From: Escherichia coli
Lineage (GTDB): Bacteria > Pseudomonadota > Gammaproteobacteria > Enterobacterales > Enterobacteriaceae
NCBI RefSeq assembly: GCF_044647545.1
Contig: NZ_CP172818.1
Reading direction: 5' to 3' (one strand)
DNA length: 64,000 nt
The position numbers were made by a program, and so were the translations under genes. The notes under the pieces are model-generated. The model did no database searches and was not told where the DNA came from. It saw only the letters and a program-made list of their open reading frames with translations. Shown here one piece after another: positions 28,916 to 46,622 of the stretch. Position 1 is the first letter of the stretch. Every line of letters begins with the position of its first letter.

Positions 28916-29123
28916 TTGCCTGGAACAGGCCGACAACGGCGAGTCACTGCATAACCTGTGGCTGCCCGCCGATGCGCCATTTACGACATTTGAAGGTAAT
29001 GGATTGTTCCGCCATAAGATCTTAATCCAGGCACCGGGTTACCGGTATGAACAGAGCAATCCAGAGCAGCAACCGCTGTGGCATTACGACAGTGCGCCAG
29101 CCGCACCGACATCCACCGGTGAA

Positions 29124-29864
29124 TTAAAAACGCCAGCTCACCCCGGTGACAAAGGTAAAACTCTCATTACGATCAATCATCGGGCTGTCGGTAATCTCTT
29201 CCGGCAGCTCGCTGTATCCTGCGCTCGCCATCAATACGACGTGCTCTCCTATCGGGTATTTTGCCGTCAGGCTGACATAGGGCACCCAGGCATCCTGCGC
29301 GGAATAACTTGCCAGACCGCTACGACGGGACTCACTCTCTGAAATGCCATAGTAATAGTCACTGAAATTCTCGTCATAATAGAGAACGCCCAGCGCAGGT
29401 GTCAGCGACAGACGACCTATCTGCATTTTGTGGAATACCGATAGCTCCCCCACCCAGCCGTTGCTGTTATCCAGAACGTCCGCAGCTGCAGAGGCTTTCA
29501 CGGTTCCCCAACGCTCGTGGTGATACCAGGCAACCCCCGCCATAGCCGTACTATCACGCTTATCAAGCTGTTGCATGGCATAATCGTCATTATCGGTAGG
29601 GTCAAATTCCAGCGGCATCCAGGATGCGGTCAGGCTAAGTTCATTTTTTTCACTTTGCGACAGAATAAAACCTAACGTGGTCTGACGAACATAAAAAGTA
29701 TCACCTTCATAACTAATCAGCGGAATTGCCTTCGTATTTTCATTATAACCGCGATAAGGCGATTCATTATAAGCCGCACCAGCACCAATGGATAATTCAG
29801 AAGCAGTTGCGCTTGCCATAAAAGGCAACGCAAATAACGCCACAATATTGCGATTAATTAACAT
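29124..29864 (-). CDS. yiaT: Outer membrane protein (MipA/OmpV family)
   Basis: 246-aa ORF with signal peptide, beta-strand-like alternation and C-terminal F. Confidence 0.88.
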   Translation of the reverse strand: MLINRNIVALFALPFMASATASELSIGAGAAYNESPYRGYNENTKAIPLISYEGDTFYVRQTTLGFILSQSEKNELSLTASWMPLEFDPTDNDDYAMQQLDKRDSTAMAGVAWYHHERWGTVKASAAADVLDNSNGWVGELSVFHKMQIGRLSLTPALGVLYYDENFSDYYYGISESESRRSGLASYSAQDAWVPYVSLTAKYPIGEHVVLMASAGYSELPEEITDSPMIDRNESFTFVTGVSWRF

Positions 29865-29987
29865 GTCCGGTATTCCATTTTAAAATAAGATAAAAAAGAG
29901 TCGGCATAATAATGCTTACAATTTCTCCGGTGCAAGATTCATATTTATATAGTAATATATAAAATTATATATAATTGGGCTGTTGCG

Positions 29988-30962
29988 ATGACAAAATTAC
30001 AACTTAAGTACCGGGAGTTAAAAATTATCTCGGTAATCGCTGCCAGTGAAAATATCAGCCATGCCGCGACTGTACTTGGCATCGCACAGGCCAACGTCAG
30101 CAAATATCTTGCTGATTTTGAATCAAAAGTGGGTTTAAAAGTCTTTGACCGAACCACCCGGCAGCTGATGCTCACACCTTTTGGCACCGCGCTGTTACCG
30201 TACATCAACGACATGCTGGACAGAAACGAGCAACTTAATAATTTTATTGCAGATTATAAGCATGAGAAACGTGGTCGGGTCACCATCTACGCCCCAACCG
30301 GCATAATTACCTATTTATCCAAACATGTAATCGATAAAATTAAAGATATCGGTGATATCACCTTATCGCTAAAAACCTGCAATCTTGAGCGTAATGCCTT
30401 TTATGAAGGCGTCGAATTTCCTGATGATTGTGATGTTTTAATCAGCTACGCTCCACCAAAAGATGAATCGCTGGTTGCCAGTTTTATTACCCAATATGCC
30501 GTAACCGCTTATGCCAGCCAGCGCTATCTTGAGAAACATCCCATTAGCCGTCCTGACGAACTCGAACATCACTCCTGTATTTTGATCGACTCGATGATGA
30601 TCGACGACGCGAATATCTGGCGCTTCAACGTCGCCGGGAGTAAAGAGGTGCGGGATTATCGCGTGAAGGGAAATTACGTTTGCGACAACACGCAATCTGC
30701 GCTGGAGCTGGCACGAAATCACCTGGGGATTGTGTTTGCGCCAGACAAAAGTGTGCAGAGCGACCTGCAAGACGGCACGCTGGTGCCCTGCTTTCAGCAA
30801 CCCTATGAATGGTGGCTGGATCTGGTGGCTATCTTCCGTAAACGGGAATACCAGCCCTGGCGGGTCCAGTATGTGCTGGATGAAATGCTGCGTGAAATTC
30901 GCCACCAGCTTGCTCAGTCGCAGCAACTGCGGCCTGAACAAGCGGCGGAAAGCGAAGATTAA
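29988..30962 (+). CDS. yiaU: LysR-family transcriptional regulator
   Basis: 324-aa ORF with N-terminal LysR HTH; divergent-convergent with yiaT/yiaV. Confidence 0.9.
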
Positions 30963-32095
30963 TGATCGAGATAAAGGTAATGCACCCAGCTGGTCATGCG
31001 TAATAGCACTTTGCGCATCACCGAGACATGGCTGAAATGATCAGAGTAAACCGCCACCTGGGCGTAAATACCGTCTGGTAAAGCGCTCAAATCAGTGTGC
31101 TCATCCAGTTCAATGGTCGCGATAACGCCATCTGAACCCGGCGCTGTGTTTAACGTCTGTAAGGTGCCGGTCGACTGATAAGCTCCGCCGGGAACGGCTG
31201 GACTAATGGCTGCCAGCTTACCGCTGAATACCTTACCTGGCAGAGCATTAAACACCACTTCCGCATCGTCGCCAGGAGCCAGTCGCAGCAAGGAGTTCTG
31301 ACGGAACTGCGCCACGATTTGTCGTTTCTGATCGGGTATAAACACCATCACCGGACGTAGCGGCAGCGACGCGGCATAGGTACCCGGACGAATCAGTACC
31401 TGGGTCACATAACCATCGCTCGGCGCACGCACTATCGTCTGCTCAAGGTTATATTTTGCTTCCGCGAGCTGTGCTTTCAGGCTGGCGATTTGAGAATGTT
31501 CACCCAACACCAGGCTATCCAGCTGGCTCTGGATCTGTTTTTGTTCCGCCGCCGATGACTTCACGGAGGCTTCCTGCGCCAGATAATTTTGCCGCGCCAC
31601 ATCGATATCGCGTTCTGAAAACGGGTTTACTTTCGCCTGGCTGCCACGTGCGTAACGCTGATACTCTTTAGCGAATTTATCCCGCGTGGCCTTTGCCTGC
31701 TGAGTATTCGCCGCCATCTCATCTAACTCTGCGCCCAACGCCCGCTGTTTATGTTCTGCGGTAACGATATCCGCCATCAGCCGATCCACCCGCGCCTGAT
31801 AACGCGTCGGGTCCAGTCGAAATAGCACCTCACCTTTTTTAATCAGCGTATTTTTCTTATCCGTCACTTCAATCACCACACCAGTCACCTGTGGGACAAC
31901 AGGAATAGAAATAACCGCTTTTTGCGCTTTAAAGGTATACGGATGGTTATAGTTCATTAACAGAATTAGACCGCTGACAATAAATATGCCACCCAGGGCC
32001 GCTGTGGGAATGGTCCATTTATTTACAGGAATTTTGAAGATCTTAAACATTGCCCATGCAAAAGCCACATAGGTCAAAATAATCAGTAAATCCAT
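30959..32095 (-). CDS. yiaV: HlyD-family membrane fusion protein
   Basis: 378-aa ORF, N-terminal TM, coiled-coil middle; paralog of yibH. Confidence 0.9.
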
Positions 32096-32100
32096 AAGTA

Positions 32101-32326
32101 TTACTCGGCAGAAGAGGTCTTGATGTCGGCGAGCTGTTTCTCCAGCCCGGCAATACGCTGTTGTAGTTGCACAACGCCGGAGGAGTCATGGTTTTGCATT
32201 CCCCATCCCCGCTCCGGGCGGTAAAGCGTGGCCCAAATCCACAAAATGGCCAGATAACATGCAGCGTAAAAAGACTCACCCAACCAGCAACATGAATGGC
32301 GTCGGCATGAGGATGATTACGTTTTG
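32101..32326 (-). pseudogene. yiaW: yiaW (DUF3302 small membrane protein), C-terminal part, separated from its 5' part by IS1
   Basis: Translation ...[46 protein letters not shown] matches the YibI paralog; reading frame runs into the IS1 left end. Confidence 0.8.
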
Positions 32327-32351
32327 GTGATGCTGCCAACTTACTGATTTA

Positions 32352-32657
32352 GTGTATGATGGTGTTTTTGAGGTGCTCCAGTGGCTTCTGTTTCTATCAG
32401 CTGTCCCTCCTGTTCAGCTACTTGACGGGGTGGTGCGTAACGGCAAAAGCACCGCCGGACATCAGCGTTATCTCTGCTCTCACTGCCGTAAAACATGGCA
32501 ACTGCAGTTCACTTACACCGCTTCTCAACCCGGTACGCACCAGAAAATCATTGATATGGCCATGAATGGCGTTGGATGCCGGGCAACCGCCCGCATTATG
32601 GGCGTTGGCCTCAACGCGATTTTACGTCACTTAAAAAACTCAGGCCGCAGTCGGTAA
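32352..32657 (+). CDS. insA: IS1 InsA-like ORF (body in frame with ...[23 protein letters not shown]...; N-terminus out of frame with the canonical GTG start at 32381)
   Basis: ORF-track translation; canonical-looking start GTG 32381 [14 protein letters not shown] reaches TGA at 32423. Confidence 0.7.
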
Positions 32658-33079
32658 CCTCGCGCATACAGCCGGGCAGTGACGTCATCGTCTGCGCGGA
32701 AATGGACGAACAGTGGGGCTATGTCGGGGCTAAATCGCGCCAGCGCTGGCTGTTTTACGCGTATGACAGGCTCCGGAAGACGGTTGTTGCGCACGTATTC
32801 GGTGAACGCACTATGGCGACGCTGGGGCGTCTTATGAGCCTGCTGTCACCCTTTGACGTGGTGATATGGATGACGGATGGCTGGCCGCTGTATGAATCCC
32901 GCCTGAAGGGAAAGCTGCACGTAATCAGCAAGCGATATACGCAGCGAATTGAGCGGCATAACCTGAATCTGAGGCAGCACCTGGCACGGCTGGGACGGAA
33001 GTCGCTGTCGTTCTCAAAATCGGTGGAGCTGCATGACAAAGTCATCGGGCATTATCTGAACATAAAACACTATCAATAA
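32576..33079 (+). CDS. insB: IS1 InsB transposase frame
   Basis: 167-aa ORF ...[21 protein letters not shown]...[48 protein letters not shown]. Confidence 0.85.
32631..32641 (+). promoter_or_regulatory. IS1 programmed -1 ribosomal frameshift motif (A6C) joining insA and insB
   Basis: ttaaaaaactc at the insA/insB junction. Confidence 0.6.
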
Positions 33080-33094
33080 GTTGGAGTCATTACC

Positions 33095-33204
33095 TTACGT
33101 TTTTTAGCAATCAGGTAGGGAATATCATGTAAAATAATAATCCCATAGAATATCACCAGAAATACAAAAATAAGCACTCCCAGTGCAAAATAGTCCAGGA
33201 ACAT
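33095..33204 (-). pseudogene. yiaW: yiaW 5' part ([37 protein letters not shown]...), separated from the 3' part by IS1
   Basis: Reverse complement of 33104-33204 encodes the N-terminus homologous to YibI; joining the two parts minus one TSD copy restores a 109-codon frame. Confidence 0.8.
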
Positions 33205-33317
33205 ATTTCCCTCAAAGAATATAAAAAAGAACAATTAACGCATATTATGAAATGCCATGATGCAGTGCAACTTCCTTATTTATATAACGACATATTGTTT
33301 TTTATATACTTTCTGAA

Positions 33318-33530
33318 ATGTGCTGTCTGGTTTTTCAACAGGACGAGGTTTATCATATTGAAATAGTGGAACTATTGGCCAAACTAATGAATAACTCCAG
33401 TAAAACATCCACAGTACAGATTAAGCGTATTAAACCTTCAATTATCTACCGTTTATTGCTGATTGGCCTCGGATCACCAATGGTGATTTACGGCCTGGTT
33501 CGCCCGCTAACCATCGAAACGCGAGATTAA
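33318..33530 (+). CDS. Hypothetical small ORF with a C-terminal hydrophobic segment (possible small membrane protein)
   Basis: 70-aa ORF; internal Met gives a 47-aa peptide MNNSSKTSTVQIKRIKPSIIYRLLLIGLGSPMVIYGLV...; no recognisable homology. Confidence 0.2.
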   Translation: MCCLVFQQDEVYHIEIVELLAKLMNNSSKTSTVQIKRIKPSIIYRLLLIGLGSPMVIYGLVRPLTIETRD

Positions 33531-33638
33531 ACGCCCGGCAATACACGCCGGGCAGCTTCTGCCAGAAACGCACTTCTGTTGGCGTAGTCTGGGTTATTGC
33601 GCACGTAGGTTTAAAACGTAAATTGTAACAACGTGCGC

Positions 33639-33735
33639 TTTGTTTATGCCGGATGCGGCGTGTACCTTATCCGGCCTACGGTCAGGTTCCCGTAGGCATG
33701 ATAAGACGCGTAAGCGTCGCATCAGGCAATGAATA
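33639..33735. repeat. REP elements downstream of aldB
   Basis: gccggatgcggcgtgtaccttatccggcctacgg and gacgcgtaagcgtcgcatcaggc palindromes. Confidence 0.5.
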
Positions 33736-33758
33736 CCCAATGCGACCAGCTTCTTACA

Positions 33759-40970: not shown

Positions 40971-43900
40971 ATGAGCGGAAAACCGGCGGCGCGTCAGGGC
41001 GACATGACGCAGTATGGCGGTAGCATTGTCCAGGGTTCAGCCGGGGTACGTATTGGTGCCCCCACCGGCGTGGCCTGTTCGGTGTGCCCCGGCGGAGTAA
41101 CGTCCGGCCATCCGGTCAATCCGCTGCTCGGTGCAAAGGTCCTTCCCGGCGAGACAGACATCGCCCTGCCCGGCCCGCTGCCGTTCATTCTCTCCCGCAC
41201 CTACAGCAGTTACCGGACAAAAACGCCCGCGCCGGTGGGGAGCCTCGGCCCCGGCTGGAAAATGCCTGCGGATATCCGCTTACAGCTGCGCGATAACACA
41301 CTGATACTCAGTGATAACGGCGGCAGAAGCCTGTATTTTGAGCACCTGTTTCCCGGTGAGGACGGTTACAGCCGCAGCGAGTCACTCTGGCTGGTGCGCG
41401 GCGGCGTGGCGAAACTGGATGAAGGTCACCGGCTGGCCGCACTCTGGCAGGCGCTGCCGGAAGAGCTTCGCCTGAGTCCGCATCGTTATCTGGCGACGAA
41501 CAGTCCACAGGGGCCGTGGTGGGTACTCGGCTGGTGTGAGCGGGTGCCGGAGGCGGATGAGGTGCTGCCTGCGCCGCTGCCGCCGTACCGGGTACTGACC
41601 GGGCTGGTGGACCGCTTCGGGCGCACACAGACGTTCCACCGTGAGGCTGGCGGCGAATTCAGCGGCGAAATCACCGGCGTGACGGATGGCGCAGGCCGTC
41701 ACTTCCGGCTGGTACTGACCACGCAGGCGCTGCGGGCAGAAGAGGCCCGGCAGAAGGCCATTTCCGGCGGGACGGAACCGTCCGCTTTTCCTGATACCCT
41801 GCCGGACTACACGGAATATGGCCGGGACAACGGTATCCGTCTGTCTGCCGTGTGGCTGACACACGACCCTGAATACCCGGAGAATTTACCTGCCGCGCCG
41901 CTGGTGCGCTATGGCTGGACGCCACGCGGCGAACTGGCGGTGGTGTATGACCGCAGCAATACACAGGTGCGCAGCTTTACTTACGATGATAAATACCGGG
42001 GCCGGATGGTGGCGCACCGTCACACGGGCCGGCCGGAAATCCGTTACCGTTACGACAGTGACGGGCGGGTGACAGAACAGCTAAACCCGGCAGGCTTAAG
42101 CTACACGTATCAGTATGAGAAAGACCGCATCACCATCACCGACAGCCTGGACCGCCGTGAAGTCCTGCATACCGCAGGCGAAGGCGGCCTGAAGCGGGTG
42201 GTGAAAAAGGAACACGCGGACGGCAGCGTCACGCAGAGTCAGTTTGACGCGGTGGGCAGGCTTAAGACACAGACGGATGCCGCAGGCCGGACAACAGAAT
42301 ACAGCCCGGATGTGGTGACGGGCCTCATCACGCGCATCACCACGCCGGATGGCAGGGCATCGGCGTTTTACTATAACCACCACAGCCAGTTAACGTCAGC
42401 CACCGGGCCTGACGGGCTGGAAATACGCCGGGAATATGATGAATCCGGCCGTCTGATTCAGGAAACCGCCCCTGACGGCGATATCACCCGCTACCGTTAT
42501 GATAATCCACACAGTGACTTCCCCTGCGCAACGGAAGATGCCACCGGCAGCCGGAAAACCATGACGTGGAGCCGTTACGGTCAGTTGCTGAGCTTCACCG
42601 ACTGTTCCGGCTACCAGACCCGTTATGACCATGACCGCTTCGGGCAGATGACGGCGGTGCACCGCGAGGAAGGCCTGAGCCAGTGCCGCGCATACGACAG
42701 CCGTGGACAGTTAATTGCCGTGAAAGACACGCAGGGCCATGAAACGCGGTATGAATACAACATCGCCGGTGACCTGACCGCCGTCATTGCCCCGGACGGC
42801 AGCAGAAACGGGACACAGTACGATGCGTGGGGAAAGGCCATCCGTACCACGCAGGGCGGGCTGACCCGCAGTATGGAATACGATGCTGCAGGACGGGTCA
42901 TCCGCCTGACAAACGAAAACGGCAGCCACACCACCTTCCGTTACGATGTACTCGACCGGCTGATACAGGAAACCGGCTTTGACGGCCGCACACAGCGTTA
43001 CCACCACGACCTGACCGGCAAACTTATCCGCAGCGAGGATGAGGGGCTGGTCACCCACTGGCACTATGACGAAGCAGACCGCATCACGCAGCGAACGGTG
43101 AATGGTGAAACCGCAGAACAGTGGCGGTACGACGAACGCGGCTGGCTGACACAAATCAGCCATCTCAGCGAAGGGCACCGGGTGACGGTGCATTACGGGT
43201 ATGATGAGAAAGGCCGCCTGACCGGTGAGCGCCAGACGGTGCATCATCCGCAGACGGAAGCACTGCTCTGGCAGCATGAGACCAGACATGCGTACAACGC
43301 GCAGGGGCTGGCGAACCGCTGTATACCGGACAACCTGCCCGCCGTGGAATGGCTGACTTATGGCAGTGGTTACCTGGCAGGGATGAAACTCGGCGACACA
43401 CCGCTGGTGGAGTACACCCGCGACCGCCTGCACCGGGAAACGCTGCGCAGCTTCGGCCGTTATGAACTCACCACCGCTTATACCCCTGCCGGGCAGTTAC
43501 AGAGCCAGCACCTGAACAGCCTGCAGTATGACCGCGATTACACCTGGAACGACAACGGCGAACTCATTCGCATCAGCAGCCCGCGCCAGACCCGGAGTTA
43601 CAGCTACAGCGACTCCGGCAGGCTGACCGGCGTTCACACCACCGCAGCGAACCTGGATATCCGCATCCCGTATGCCACGGACCCGGCAGGTAACCGCCTG
43701 CCCGACCCGGAGCTGCACCCGGACAGCACCCTCAGCATGTGGCCGGATAACCGTATCGCCCGTGACGCGCACTATCTTTACCGGTATGACCGTCACGGCA
43801 GGCTGACGGAGAAAACCGACCTCATCCCGGAAGGGGTTATCCGCACGGATGATGAGCGGACTCACCGGTACCATTACGACAGCCGGCACCGGCTGGTGCA

Positions 43901-44750
43901 CTACACGCGGACACAATATGCAGAGCCGCTGGTCGAAAGTCGCTATCTTTACGACCCGCTGGGCCGCAGGGTGGCAAAACGGGTGTGGCGGCGTGAACGG
44001 GACCTGACGGGCTGGATGTCGCTGTCACGGAAACCGGAAGTGACCTGGTACGGCTGGGACGGCGACCGCCTGACCACGATACAGAACGACAGAACCCGCA
44101 TCCAGACGGTTTATCAGCCGGGGAGCTTCACACCACTCATCAGGGTCGAAACCGCCACCGGTGAGCAGGCGAAAACGCAGCGCCGCAGCCTGGCGGATGC
44201 GCTTCAGCAGTCCGGCGGCGAAGACGGTGGCAGTGTGGTGTTCCCGCCGGTGCTGGTGCAGATGCTCGACCGGCTGGAAAGTGAAATCCTTACTGACCGG
44301 GTGAGTGAGGAAAGCCGCCGCTGGCTGGCATCGTGCGGCCTGACGGTGGCGCAGATGCAAAACCAGATGGACCCGGTGTACACGCCGGCGCGAAAAATCC
44401 ACCTGTACCACTGCGACCATCGCGGCCTGCCGCTGGCGCTTGTCAGCACGGAAGGGGCAACAGAATGGTGCGCAGAATACGATGAGTGGGGCAACCTGCT
44501 GAATGAAGAGAACCCGCACCAGCTGCAACAGCTTATCCGCCTGCCGGGTCAGCAGTATGATGAGGAGTCCGGCCTGTATTACAACCGCCACCGCTATTAT
44601 GACCCGCTGCAGGGGCGGTATATCACTCAGGATCCGATTGGGCTGAAGGGGGGATGGAATTTTTATCAGTATCCGTTGAATCCGATATCAGACATCGAGC
44701 CCCCTGGGTTTATCTATGTGGGAGGATGCAAAATCGGGGGCATGTACTAA
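40971..44750 (+). CDS. rhsA: Rhs-family polymorphic toxin core protein: N-terminal PAAR motif, YD repeats, Rhs core; very short 12-residue tail after an EPPGF motif
   Basis: 1259-aa ORF; N-terminus [26 protein letters not shown] (PAAR); many YD/YxYD repeats; ends ...[39 protein letters not shown]. Confidence 0.92.
44238..44686 (+). repeat. Rhs core 3'-end repeat, copy A (inside rhsA)
   Basis: About 450 bp near-identical to 46623-47069 at a constant offset of about 2384 bp. Confidence 0.9.
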
Positions 44751-45754
44751 TGGTCTTTGCGGCATATCAGCTGTGATGAGAGGTGCATAAGTTTTTCATA
44801 GACCGCATATGACGCCTTAATAACAATAAAATTAAAATATATTTTCAATAAAATCAATAGCCAAATAAAATAAATAAATAAATTTTCCCTGCACCTAGAA
44901 CGTGGAGAAAGTTAGTACATACTATGGATGCAATAGCATTGACATAATGGTGGGACGAATATTTTCACTTCGACTAATGTGGTAGATATCAGATTTGGAC
45001 GAAATATTTTAAGCAAAGATGAAAATAATTAAAATAAACAACGAATAAATACCACCCCATTAATAAACAATAGATAACCACGGGAAGGAAATAACAAACG
45101 GAAAAGGATCCGATGCCAGAGTTATCGGTAATATTAAAAAAAAAAATATAAATAAAATAAATAAATTTTATTTAGCACTCCCATTTTTTTTACACAACAT
45201 GGCCATAATAATAATTTTAAAATAATAATGACGGGAAAGAGAGAAAGAAGGTAAACTGTAAAAGGATTACAAAAATTTGGTCTACAAATACAGGTTATAG
45301 TAAAAAAATATTTTTTAGAATTTATTGTATCTTTTTTTTTTTACAACAACACAGGTCGCAGTGTAATTACAGAGATATTAAAATAATGCTCAAATTTATG
45401 AAGCAGTGAGGCAGAAGAATATACATATAAACGCTTCATTAAAACAAGTGGGTAATTTGGTTAAAAATAAACTAACATTGAATTACAATATATGTTAAAA
45501 TCAGGCAACCAAAAAGAAAAAATATAAAATATGATTAACAACAAGTCTTGTTGAAGGCACCATTCACTCAGACCAAATTGCTGGTGGGGTTTTTATTAGA
45601 AAATAGGCAAAAATGATGGGGTAATTCTGAATTTTGGCCACGGAAAATAAGTATGTAAGGATAATCAAACATCGTGTGCGCTGATGGCAGAGTAGGTGGA
45701 GGACTCCAGACAGTCAAACGATAAAAAAAGATAGCCTTTATGGAGGCTCCTGCA
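44751..45754. other. Extremely AT-rich block without ORFs of 60 aa or more between rhsA and yibA; contains A11 (45136-45146) and T11 (45332-45342) homopolymers
   Basis: Visibly low GC and low complexity; ORF track shows no ORF on either strand. Confidence 0.8.
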
Positions 45755-46597
45755 ATGTCAAATACATACCAGAAAAGAAAGGCAAGTAAAGAGTATGGTT
45801 TATATAATCAATGTAAGAAACTAAATGATGATGAATTATTTCGCTTACTTGATGATCACAATTCCTTGAAAAGGATTTCATCTGCCAGAGTATTACAGTT
45901 AAGAGGTGGGCAAGACGCTGTTAGATTGGTAATTGAGTTCTGCTCTGATAAAAATTATATCCGTAGAGATATCGGAGCATTTATACTCGGGCAAATAAAA
46001 ATTTGCAAAAAATGCGAAGATAATGTGTTTAATATTTTGAACAATATGGCATTGAATGATAAGAGCGCTTGCGTTCGAGCTACGGCAATCGAGTCAACGG
46101 CTCAGCGATGCAAGAAAAACCCAATTTATTCACCTAAAATAGTAGAACAATCTCAAATTACTGCTTTTGATAAATCGACTAATGTCAGACGTGCTACAGC
46201 ATTTGCTATTTCTGTTATCAATGATAAAGCAACAATTCCACTATTGATTAATCTGTTAAAAGATCCAAATGGAGATGTCAGAAACTGGGCCGCATTTGCA
46301 ATAAATATCAATAAATATGATAATAGTGATATTAGGGATTGTTTTGTGGAGATGCTTCAGGATAAAAATGAGGAAGTCCGTATTGAAGCAATAATCGGAC
46401 TTTCCTACAGAAAAGATAAAAGGGTTTTATCTGTTTTATGCGATGAGTTAAAAAAAAATACTGTTTATGATGATATCATTGAAGCTGCGGGTGAATTAGG
46501 TGATAAAACGCTACTTCCTGTTTTAGATACTATGTTGTACAAGTTTGATGACAATGAAATTATAACTTCCGCTATTGATAAGCTGAAGCGTTCATAG
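45755..46597 (+). CDS. yibA: HEAT-repeat protein YibA
   Basis: ORF 45740..46597; start set at MSNTYQKRKASKEYGLYNQ giving 280 aa; repeated helical-repeat pattern. Confidence 0.85.
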   Translation: MSNTYQKRKASKEYGLYNQCKKLNDDELFRLLDDHNSLKRISSARVLQLRGGQDAVRLVIEFCSDKNYIRRDIGAFILGQIKICKKCEDNVFNILNNMALNDKSACVRATAIESTAQRCKKNPIYSPKIVEQSQITAFDKSTNVRRATAFAISVINDKATIPLLINLLKDPNGDVRNWAAFAININKYDNSDIRDCFVEMLQDKNEEVRIEAIIGLSYRKDKRVLSVLCDELKKNTVYDDIIEAAGELGDKTLLPVLDTMLYKFDDNEIITSAIDKLKRS

Positions 46598-46622
46598 CGT
46601 GAGTTGCCTATGCACAGTGGGG

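What the first reader, a model, noticed from the sequence alone, without database searches (positions are those of the whole stretch)
44751..45754. Extremely AT-rich non-coding block between rhsA and yibA
About 1 kb of visibly very low GC with no ORF of 60 aa or more on either strand, A11 and T11 homopolymers and short AAAT-type tandems. It sits where an Rhs tip and immunity gene would be expected. It could be an eroded toxin/immunity cassette, an H-NS-silenced horizontally acquired spacer, or a source of promoters for yibA. The homopolymers are potential slipped-strand hotspots. The composition is sharply different from the flanking GC-rich Rhs core.
Basis: seen in the sequence. Interest (0 to 1): 0.5.

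Follow-up and report, generated by a model that had tools for sequence, protein, structure and literature searches.

The report
Garbled copy of Rhs toxin-immunity cassette
The AT-rich "non-coding" kilobase is a badly corrupted copy of a well-known Rhs toxin tip and its immunity gene yhhH, and the kind of damage points to a fault in the sequence record rather than to biology.

Summary
Window 44751-45754 has GC 0.305 (interior about 0.26), no ORF of 50 aa or more, A11 and T11 runs and an (AAAT)5 tandem.

It is not a spacer. It is colinear with the C-terminal toxin tip (Pfam DUF4329 / Tox-JAB-2) of the main Rhs gene plus the immunity gene yhhH (Imm-NTF2-2).

The window is otherwise almost clonal with ST648-type E. 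coli: 100% over 8.9 kb and 99.997% over 28.6 kb to FDAARGOS_497. All of those strains carry the cassette intact.

In the window, about 765 bp (44781-45545) differ by 62 substitutions (17 transitions, 45 transversions) and about 280-320 indel positions. Base loss is base- and strand-specific (G > C, T > A). A roughly 165-bp junction segment is present twice as two independently noisy copies. A +1 G insertion breaks the Rhs frame at the DPxGL motif.

A second block (47700-49202, ISAs1 region) is damaged the same way. The equally AT-rich yibA between them is perfect.

Natural alleles of this cassette differ by 16 substitutions (14 transitions) and no indels. No public collection holds any block-specific k-mer.

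Most likely this is a technical artefact of the record over a known cassette. Interest is low.

The parts
40971..44750 (+). Main Rhs gene of the rhsA-locus element (between yibF and yibA). As written it is a truncated 1259-aa ORF. The reference protein is 1411 aa and ends in a DUF4329 toxin tip.
   Evidence: ORF list. Identical to FDAARGOS_497 rhsB-type gene up to about 44640. Pfam architecture of the intact relatives is DUF6531, RHS repeats, RHS core, DUF4329.
44640..44660 (+). Patch of 8 mismatches to the ST648 reference. It changes the core end from GWNLYGYQLNP to [11 protein letters not shown], the version found at the orphan core ends near 47040 and 49260 in the same window.
   Evidence: Alignments. 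Real genomes with this combination exist at 98.5% identity.
44699..44699 (+). +1 G insertion (CATCGA-CCCCC becomes CATCGAGCCCCC) inside the codons of the DPLGL cleavage motif. It shifts the frame so the ORF reads [19 protein letters not shown] and stops at 44750.
   Evidence: None of 5,426 complete E. coli genomes carries it.
44697..45140 (+). Remnant of the toxin tip (DUF4329 / Tox-JAB-2). It is identical to the reference as far as about 44764-44780, then scrambled.
   Evidence: tblastn E=6e-17 with stops and frame changes. Intact tip is PF14220, E=1e-39. Colinear DNA alignment.
44781..45545 (+). Scrambled core of the finding, compared with the near-clonal reference: 62 substitutions (17 ts / 45 tv), about 280-320 indel positions, GC 0.34 falling to 0.26, and preferential loss of G.
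45065..45232 (+). First noisy copy of the tip-stop / yhhH-start junction (reference L001 about 2495-2690). Contains the A11 run at 45136.
   Evidence: 68% identical to reference, 60% to copy 2.
45233..45400 (+). Second noisy copy of the same junction, head-to-tail with the first. Contains the T11 run at 45332, derived from reference TTTGTTTGTTTTT by loss of two G's.
   Evidence: 70% identical to reference.
45277..45650 (+). Remnant of the immunity gene yhhH (Imm-NTF2-2). The 5' two-thirds are scrambled. From 45548 to the stop (GGCCACGGAAAATAA, 45636-45650) it is identical to the reference apart from one small lesion near 45598.
   Evidence: tblastn E=2e-14. Intact YhhH is PF15631, E=5e-25. Coordinates.
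45651..45754 (+). Native yhhH-yibA spacer with the yibA ribosome-binding site (GGAGG at 45742). Identical to the reference.
45755..46597 (+). yibA, an intact 280-aa HEAT-repeat protein. It is as AT-rich as the native cassette (GC 0.34) and a perfect match to the reference, so it serves as an internal control.
   Evidence: NCBIfam NF007244, E=2e-139. Control stretch 45560-47000 has 2 differences in 1441 bases.
47700..49202 (+). Second scrambled block with the same signature. It is a degraded copy of the AT-rich DNA and ISAs1 transposase of the reference (L005 14240-16176): 498 deleted, 63 inserted and 78 substituted positions, with G lost at 53%.
   Evidence: Absent from all complete E. coli genomes.

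Best explanation
The block marks the position of two known genes: the C-terminal toxin domain of the main Rhs protein (DUF4329 / Tox-JAB-2) and its cognate immunity gene yhhH (Imm-NTF2-2). They lie in the ST648-type arrangement rhs - yhhH - yibA.

In the window these genes appear as a corrupted rendition of the normal sequence:
- one extra G sits in the DPxGL motif;
- about 765 bp follow in which roughly a third of the G's and an eighth of the C's and T's are missing, with A-rich stretches inserted;
- about 165 bp around the gene junction are written twice, as two independently noisy copies.

As written, the DNA encodes nothing.

The most likely cause is technical. One possibility is a stretch taken from one or a few uncorrected single-molecule reads, with an unmerged overlap, that polishing could not repair. 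Some other corruption of the record is also possible. Under this explanation the real chromosome most probably carries the ordinary intact cassette.

Shown here: the homology, the colinearity, the singleton status, the error spectrum and the second block.
Inferred: the technical origin, and the exact pipeline step that produced it.
For: 1. Near-clonal relatives have the intact cassette.
- The window is 100.0% identical over 8.9 kb and 99.997% over 28.6 kb to FDAARGOS_497 and other ST648-type genomes.
- Every related locus inspected has DUF4329-Rhs plus Imm-NTF2-2 upstream of the identical YibA.
- At that background divergence about 0.03 differences are expected in 765 bp. More than 340 are seen.

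2. The spectrum is unlike natural change.
- Block 1 has 62 substitutions (17 ts / 45 tv) and 280-320 indel positions.
- The natural ST648 and K-12 alleles of the same DNA differ by 16 substitutions (14 ts / 2 tv) and 0 indels in 969 bp.

3. Base loss is base- and strand-specific, in the same order in both blocks.
- Block 2: G 53%, C 33%, T 16%, A 6.5%.
- Block 1: G 32%, C 13%, T 12%, A 6%.

4. A second block 2 kb away (47700-49202) shows the same damage over an unrelated element, ISAs1.
- yibA lies between them with the same native GC and has 2 differences in 1441 bases.

5. The two junction copies are each closer to the reference (68-70%) than to each other (60%). This is what an unmerged overlap of two noisy sequences gives.

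6. Singleton status.
- No match in 5,426 complete E. coli genomes.
- Three block-specific 24-mers are absent from the large collections: two block-1 24-mers from the 100,044-species genome collection, and one block-1 and one block-2 24-mer from the JGI metagenomes.
- The truncated Rhs protein is not on record.

7. Homopolymers of 8 or more occur almost only in the two blocks, and they derive from dropped interrupting bases.
Against: - I could not identify the source record, its sequencing method or its reads, so the artefact is inferred, not demonstrated.
- Differences reach about 30-40% of columns and are patchy, with perfect runs of up to 40-52 bases. That is more, and less uniform, than a typical raw long read.
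- The rest of the window is of excellent quality.
- yibA and the long Rhs core repeat are not affected, so simple explanations such as low coverage of AT-rich DNA or collapsed repeats do not predict which stretches are damaged.
- The 8-mismatch patch at 44640-44660 also occurs in real genomes, so not every difference in the region is noise.
Confidence: 0.75

Rival explanations
1. The block is real DNA. In this one isolate the toxin/immunity cassette and the nearby ISAs1 region were hit by a localised, strand-specific hypermutation or error-prone resynthesis, for example repair or copying through a low-fidelity intermediate. That left a dead, AT-shifted remnant. The Rhs protein would be a toxin-less shell and the cell would lack YhhH immunity.
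For: - The sequence is what the window shows.
- Boundaries are sharp, and the damage covers exactly the toxic and mobile modules.
- The +1 frameshift at DPxGL would independently inactivate the toxin.
- Loss of a toxin together with its immunity gene is selectively permissible.
Against: - No known bacterial process deletes half the G's of one strand over 1.5 kb while leaving 28 kb of flanking DNA with a single difference.
- The spectrum is opposite to natural variation in the same DNA.
- It is a singleton among more than 5,400 genomes and all other collections searched.
- The two junction copies carry independent changes.
Confidence: 0.17
2. The block is a natural, anciently diverged and decayed allele of the rhsB-tip/yhhH module. 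It was imported by recombination from an unsampled donor, such as an orphan module of another lineage or species, with crossover points inside the tip and inside yhhH.
For: - Rhs tips and immunity genes are known to be exchanged by recombination with orphan modules. This rests on established knowledge and on PMC3482391.
- The flanks return to perfect identity, as after a double crossover.
- The core-end patch at 44640-44660 looks like gene conversion.
Against: - No donor-like sequence exists in 5,426 E. coli genomes, 100,044 species representatives or the JGI metagenomes.
- Block 2 reads as 'reference minus 25% of its bases': 91% of the remaining bases match. That is not what saturated divergence looks like.
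- Transversions outnumber transitions and indels outnumber substitutions.
- A non-functional 750-bp relic would not be expected to keep its length and colinearity for the time that about 30% divergence needs.
Confidence: 0.04
3. The block is a functional AT-rich regulatory spacer, either an H-NS-bound silencer or a promoter island driving yibA.
For: - It has very low GC.
- AT-rich horizontally acquired DNA is a typical H-NS target (established knowledge).
- yibA follows directly.
Against: - Promoter-like sites number 6, against 6.1 +/- 2.1 in shuffles.
- There is no Rfam match.
- The block is homologous along its whole length to two protein-coding genes.
- It is not conserved in any other genome.
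- The 210 bp next to yibA are simply the native sequence found in all relatives.
Confidence: 0.02

Closest known systems
Rhs polymorphic toxin tip Tox-JAB-2 (Pfam DUF4329) with its immunity protein Imm-NTF2-2 (YhhH), as in E. coli rhsB-yhhH
   Same: - Same position: directly after the Rhs core's DPxGL motif and before yibA.
- Colinear DNA.
- Residual protein similarity, E=6e-17 for the tip and E=2e-14 for YhhH.
- The first ~80 bp of the tip and the last ~100 bp of yhhH, with the ~105-bp spacer that follows it, are identical to the ST648 allele.
- The toxin/immunity pairing is described in PMC3482391.
   Different: - No open reading frame survives.
- There is a frameshift at DPxGL.
- About 765 bp are scrambled and GC is lowered from 0.34 to 0.26.
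- The junction is duplicated.
Ordinary bacterial pseudogenes, including decayed orphan Rhs tip/immunity modules
   Same: - Homologous to functional genes but full of stops and frameshifts.
- Located in an Rhs element that also holds truncated core fragments and orphan modules.
   Different: - Natural decay gives mostly substitutions with a transition excess and is shared by related strains.
- Here indels outnumber substitutions about 5:1, transversions dominate, loss is strand-specific, and the nearest relatives differ elsewhere by about 1 in 28,000 bases.
Low-quality patches in genome assemblies (unpolished long-read gap fills, unmerged overlaps)
   Same: - Indel-dominated, strand-asymmetric errors and homopolymer artefacts.
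- Sharp switches between perfect and very poor sequence.
- A head-to-tail duplication with independent errors.
- Several patches close together.
- Singleton status.
   Different: - The error level is higher and more patchy than I would expect from a single modern long read.
- The technical origin could not be verified because the source record and its reads are not available.

Membership tests
Rhs C-terminal toxin / immunity cassette (Tox-JAB-2 + Imm-NTF2-2) | Variable toxin domain in frame after the PxxxxDPxGL motif of the Rhs core | tested here: not met
   The motif's DNA is present, but a +1 G at 44699 shifts the frame and the ORF stops at 44750.
Rhs C-terminal toxin / immunity cassette (Tox-JAB-2 + Imm-NTF2-2) | C-terminal domain matches DUF4329 / Tox-JAB-2 | tested here: inconclusive
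   The intact relative matches PF14220 at E=1e-39. The window retains only fragmentary similarity across frames with stops (tblastn E=6e-17). Descent is shown, but a domain is not.
Rhs C-terminal toxin / immunity cassette (Tox-JAB-2 + Imm-NTF2-2) | Small immunity ORF immediately downstream, overlapping the toxin stop | tested here: not met
   The reference has yhhH (127 aa, PF15631, E=5e-25). The window has no ORF there, only remnants at E=2e-14.
Evolutionarily eroded pseudogene | Change spectrum like natural mutation (substitutions outnumber indels, transitions outnumber transversions, roughly strand-symmetric) | tested here: not met
   62 substitutions (17 ts / 45 tv) against 280-320 indel positions. 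G is lost 1.6-2.4 times more often than C. Natural baseline: 14 ts / 2 tv and 0 indels.
Evolutionarily eroded pseudogene | Divergence of the relic in keeping with divergence of the surrounding genome, and shared by related strains | tested here: not met
   Flanks are 99.997-100% identical to strains with the intact cassette. The block is absent from all collections searched.
AT-rich regulatory or H-NS-silenced spacer, or promoter island | Excess of promoter-like sites over composition-matched expectation | tested here: not met
   6 sites, against 6.1 +/- 2.1 in dinucleotide shuffles.
AT-rich regulatory or H-NS-silenced spacer, or promoter island | H-NS occupancy or transcription starts in vivo | not testable with these tools
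   No ChIP or RNA data for the source strain.
Sequence-record / assembly artefact | Not reproduced in any independent sequence of the same or related strains | tested here: met
Sequence-record / assembly artefact | Error-like signature: indel-dominated, strand-specific, homopolymer-creating, several patches, duplicated overlap with independent errors | tested here: met
Sequence-record / assembly artefact | Raw reads or re-sequencing contradict the assembled sequence | not testable with these tools
   The source record and its reads are unknown.

The most novel reading that the evidence does not exclude
The two blocks are real. They would record a localised, strand-specific mutational catastrophe that preferentially removes G (and C) and expands A/T runs. 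It would have hit the toxin/immunity cassette and the neighbouring IS element in one otherwise clonal ST648-type isolate. A possible cause is resynthesis of these segments by a very low-fidelity polymerase or reverse transcriptase followed by gene conversion.
Probability: 0.04. Interest if true: 0.8.

Novelty: not a real feature. Interest (0 to 1): 0.1.

Why it matters
For biology, very little. The underlying locus is the well-described Rhs toxin tip (Tox-JAB-2 / DUF4329) with its Imm-NTF2-2 immunity gene, upstream of the HEAT-repeat gene yibA.

It matters as a caution. A striking AT-rich "non-coding" kilobase with long homopolymers can be a corrupted rendering of two ordinary genes. Taken at face value it would give three false calls: a truncated Rhs, a missing immunity gene and a new intergenic element.

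Only if the sequence were confirmed by re-sequencing would it become interesting. It would then be evidence for an unknown, highly localised, G-deleting mutational process.

Tried and rejected
- **Structured RNA:** an Rfam scan of 44000-50000 at a permissive threshold gave only a chance-level snoRNA hit (E=0.34).
- **Promoter island for yibA:** site counts equal the shuffle expectation.
- **Different species or deep lineage:** I suspected this at first because the top hits were only about 97.5% identical. That came from ranking by coverage of an IS1 copy. A clean housekeeping query gave 100% identity to ST648-type strains.
- **Garbled consensus of two known alleles (ST648-type and K-12-type rhsA loci):** only about 1% of block 12-mers occur in the K-12-type locus, and there is no significant alignment to its tip.
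- **Finding the source assembly or a sibling:**
  - the exact truncated Rhs protein is not on record;
  - ten places carrying the exact YibA protein all have the intact cassette; L006 looked different only because its gene list was incomplete;
  - four k-mer scans of the large collections found nothing.
- **Low coverage of AT-rich DNA, or collapsed repeats, as the specific technical cause:** not convincing. yibA has the same native GC and the 3.7-kb Rhs core is a longer repeat, yet both are perfect.
- **Technical note:** locus L004 never reached the script machine and was re-fetched as L005.

Full report
**Observation**

The block is as described.
- The long Rhs ORF (40971-44750, 1259 aa) ends at 44750 and the yibA ATG is at 45755.
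- GC between them is 0.305, with 200-bp windows down to 0.24. The Rhs core is about 0.63 and the window mean is 0.503.
- There is no ORF of 50 aa or more.
- There are A11 (45136) and T11 (45332) runs and an (AAAT)5 tandem at 44863-44883.
- Rfam finds nothing.
- Sigma-70-like sites are no more frequent than in composition-matched shuffles: 6 against 6.1 +/- 2.1.

**What the block is homologous to**

- A search of 5,426 complete E. coli genomes found no genome holding the block as a whole. Its 3' half matches the end of an rhsB-type gene plus yhhH at about 84%.
- In E. coli FDAARGOS_497 the order is rhs (1411 aa), then yhhH (127 aa, overlapping the rhs stop), then a 104-bp spacer, then yibA.
- Alignment shows the window is colinear with this arrangement over its whole length.
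- Translated comparison recovers the toxin tip (E=6e-17) and YhhH (E=2e-14), but across several frames and through many stop codons.
- The intact tip is Pfam DUF4329 (E=1e-39) and the intact YhhH is Imm-NTF2-2 (E=5e-25).
- Zhang et al. 2012 describe DUF4329 as the Tox-JAB-2 toxin domain, with Imm-NTF2-2 as its cognate immunity family. They list HEAT-repeat proteins such as YibA as another immunity class (PMC3482391).
- A later in-silico paper calls DUF4329 an RNase domain, citing other work (PMC7216683).

**Why this is not ordinary erosion**

- A clean housekeeping stretch of the window (xylG to avtA, 8.9 kb) is 100.0% identical to FDAARGOS_497 and other ST648-type genomes.
- Across 28.6 kb the window differs from FDAARGOS_497 by a single gap.
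- All these relatives carry the intact cassette. So do all ten loci that encode the exact same YibA protein.
- Differences are concentrated in two blocks: about 44781-45545 (the finding) and 47700-49202.
- The stretch between them includes yibA, whose native GC (0.337) equals that of the native cassette (0.34-0.37). It has 2 differences in 1441 bases.
- The second block is a degraded copy of AT-rich DNA plus the ISAs1 transposase of the reference. It has 498 deleted, 63 inserted and 78 substituted positions, and GC falls from 0.37 to 0.26.

**Spectrum of the changes**

- Block 1 has 62 substitutions (17 transitions, 45 transversions; GC-to-AT 35, AT-to-GC 8).
- It also has 280-320 indel positions, depending on trimming.
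- Base loss is base- and strand-specific and follows the same order in both blocks:
  - block 2: G 53%, C 33%, T 16%, A 6.5%;
  - block 1: G 32%, C 13%, T 12%, A 6%.
- The T11 run is the reference TTTGTTTGTTTTT without its two G's. The A11 run comes from an A7 run next to a T-run.
- Runs of 8 or more occur almost only inside the two blocks, and none occurs in the reference cassette.
- Natural baseline with the same aligner: the ST648 allele and the K-12 rhsB-yhhH locus differ by 16 substitutions (14 transitions, 2 transversions) and no indels over 969 bp.
- The window's changes are therefore about 10,000-fold too many for the background divergence, and of the wrong kind for natural mutation.

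**Further details**

- About 165 bp around the rhs-stop / yhhH-start junction appear twice, head to tail (45065-45232 and 45233-45400).
- Each copy is closer to the reference (68% and 70%) than to the other copy (60%). They are two independent noisy versions of one template, as when two poor sequences overlap but are not merged.
- About 80 bp upstream of the scrambled part, a +1 G inside the DPLGL codons shifts the Rhs frame. No complete genome has it, and all matches to this stretch stop at window 44764.
- An 8-mismatch patch at 44640-44660 changes the core end to the NFYQYPLNP version seen at the orphan core ends in the same window. That combination does occur in real genomes (98.5% identity), so it may be genuine gene conversion.
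- The last 210 bp before yibA hold the yhhH 3' end, the spacer and the ribosome-binding site. They are native apart from one small lesion near 45598.

**Singleton status**

- Neither block exists in any of the 5,426 complete E. coli genomes.
- The three block-specific 24-mers tested are absent from the large collections. Two block-1 24-mers are absent from the 100,044-species genome collection. One block-1 and one block-2 24-mer are absent from the JGI metagenomes.
- The truncated Rhs protein is not on record.
- The blocks are not a mixture of known alleles. About 1% of their 12-mers occur in the K-12-type rhsA locus, against 8-10% in the ST648 locus.

**Interpretation**

- The best-supported reading (about 0.75) is a non-biological corruption of a known cassette in the sequence record.
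- One candidate cause is a stretch derived from one or a few uncorrected single-molecule reads, joined with an unmerged overlap and too divergent for short-read polishing to repair. That would also explain the abrupt switches between perfect and very poor sequence.
- This step is inferred. I could not find the source record or its reads.
- The error level (30-40% of columns, patchy) is higher than I would expect from a modern raw read.
- Simple low-coverage or repeat arguments do not predict why yibA and the Rhs core are clean.
- The main rival (about 0.17) is that the DNA is real, and that this isolate suffered a localised, strand-specific, G-deleting mutational event over the toxin/immunity and IS modules. 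No known bacterial process does this.
- Import of an anciently decayed allele from an unsampled donor (about 0.04) and a functional AT-rich regulatory spacer (about 0.02) are poorly supported.

**How the intact system works (established knowledge, not tested here)**

- The Rhs YD-repeat shell encloses the C-terminal toxin.
- The toxin is released by autoproteolysis at the DPxGL motif and delivered to neighbouring bacteria.
- YhhH protects the producer.
- As written in the window, the shell would end at the motif, and neither toxin nor immunity protein could be made.

**Verdict**

- The feature as a non-coding AT-rich element is most likely not real.
- Interest is low unless re-sequencing confirms the sequence.

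Noticed in passing
window 47700-49202: A second scrambled block with the same signature as the finding. It is a degraded copy of AT-rich DNA plus the ISAs1 transposase of the reference: 498 deletions, G lost at 53%, GC 0.37 falling to 0.26, and new A13 and T9 runs. It has the lowest GC in the window.
   Followed up: yes
window 47100-47600: Sporadic single-base indels and mismatches relative to the near-identical reference. They break the 100-aa hypothetical ORF annotated there (L005 13778-14080) into 54-aa and 41-aa pieces. This suggests low-level damage extends beyond the two heavy blocks.
   Followed up: partly
window 44640-44660, compared with about 47040 and about 49260: An 8-mismatch patch gives the main Rhs gene the core end [11 protein letters not shown], as in the two orphan core fragments of the same element. 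The ST648 version is GWNLYGYQLNP. This could be gene conversion between core ends or mis-correction with paralogous reads. Real genomes with this combination exist.
   Followed up: partly
window 29102-33756: The window carries yiaT-yiaW plus an IS1 copy here (32326-33094), 99.2-99.35% identical to a K-12-like strain. The otherwise identical FDAARGOS_497 has a different gene set (AraC regulator, MFS transporter, GH127, HicAB, type I restriction enzyme, Fic). This is a strain-variable island next to aldB.
   Followed up: no
window 46639-47148 and about 49352-50285: Orphan Rhs modules downstream of yibA. One is a core-end fragment with its own short tip. The other is a Tlde1-domain protein followed by an Imm57 immunity gene, named from the annotation of the matching reference. 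Both are intact and near-identical to the reference.
   Followed up: no
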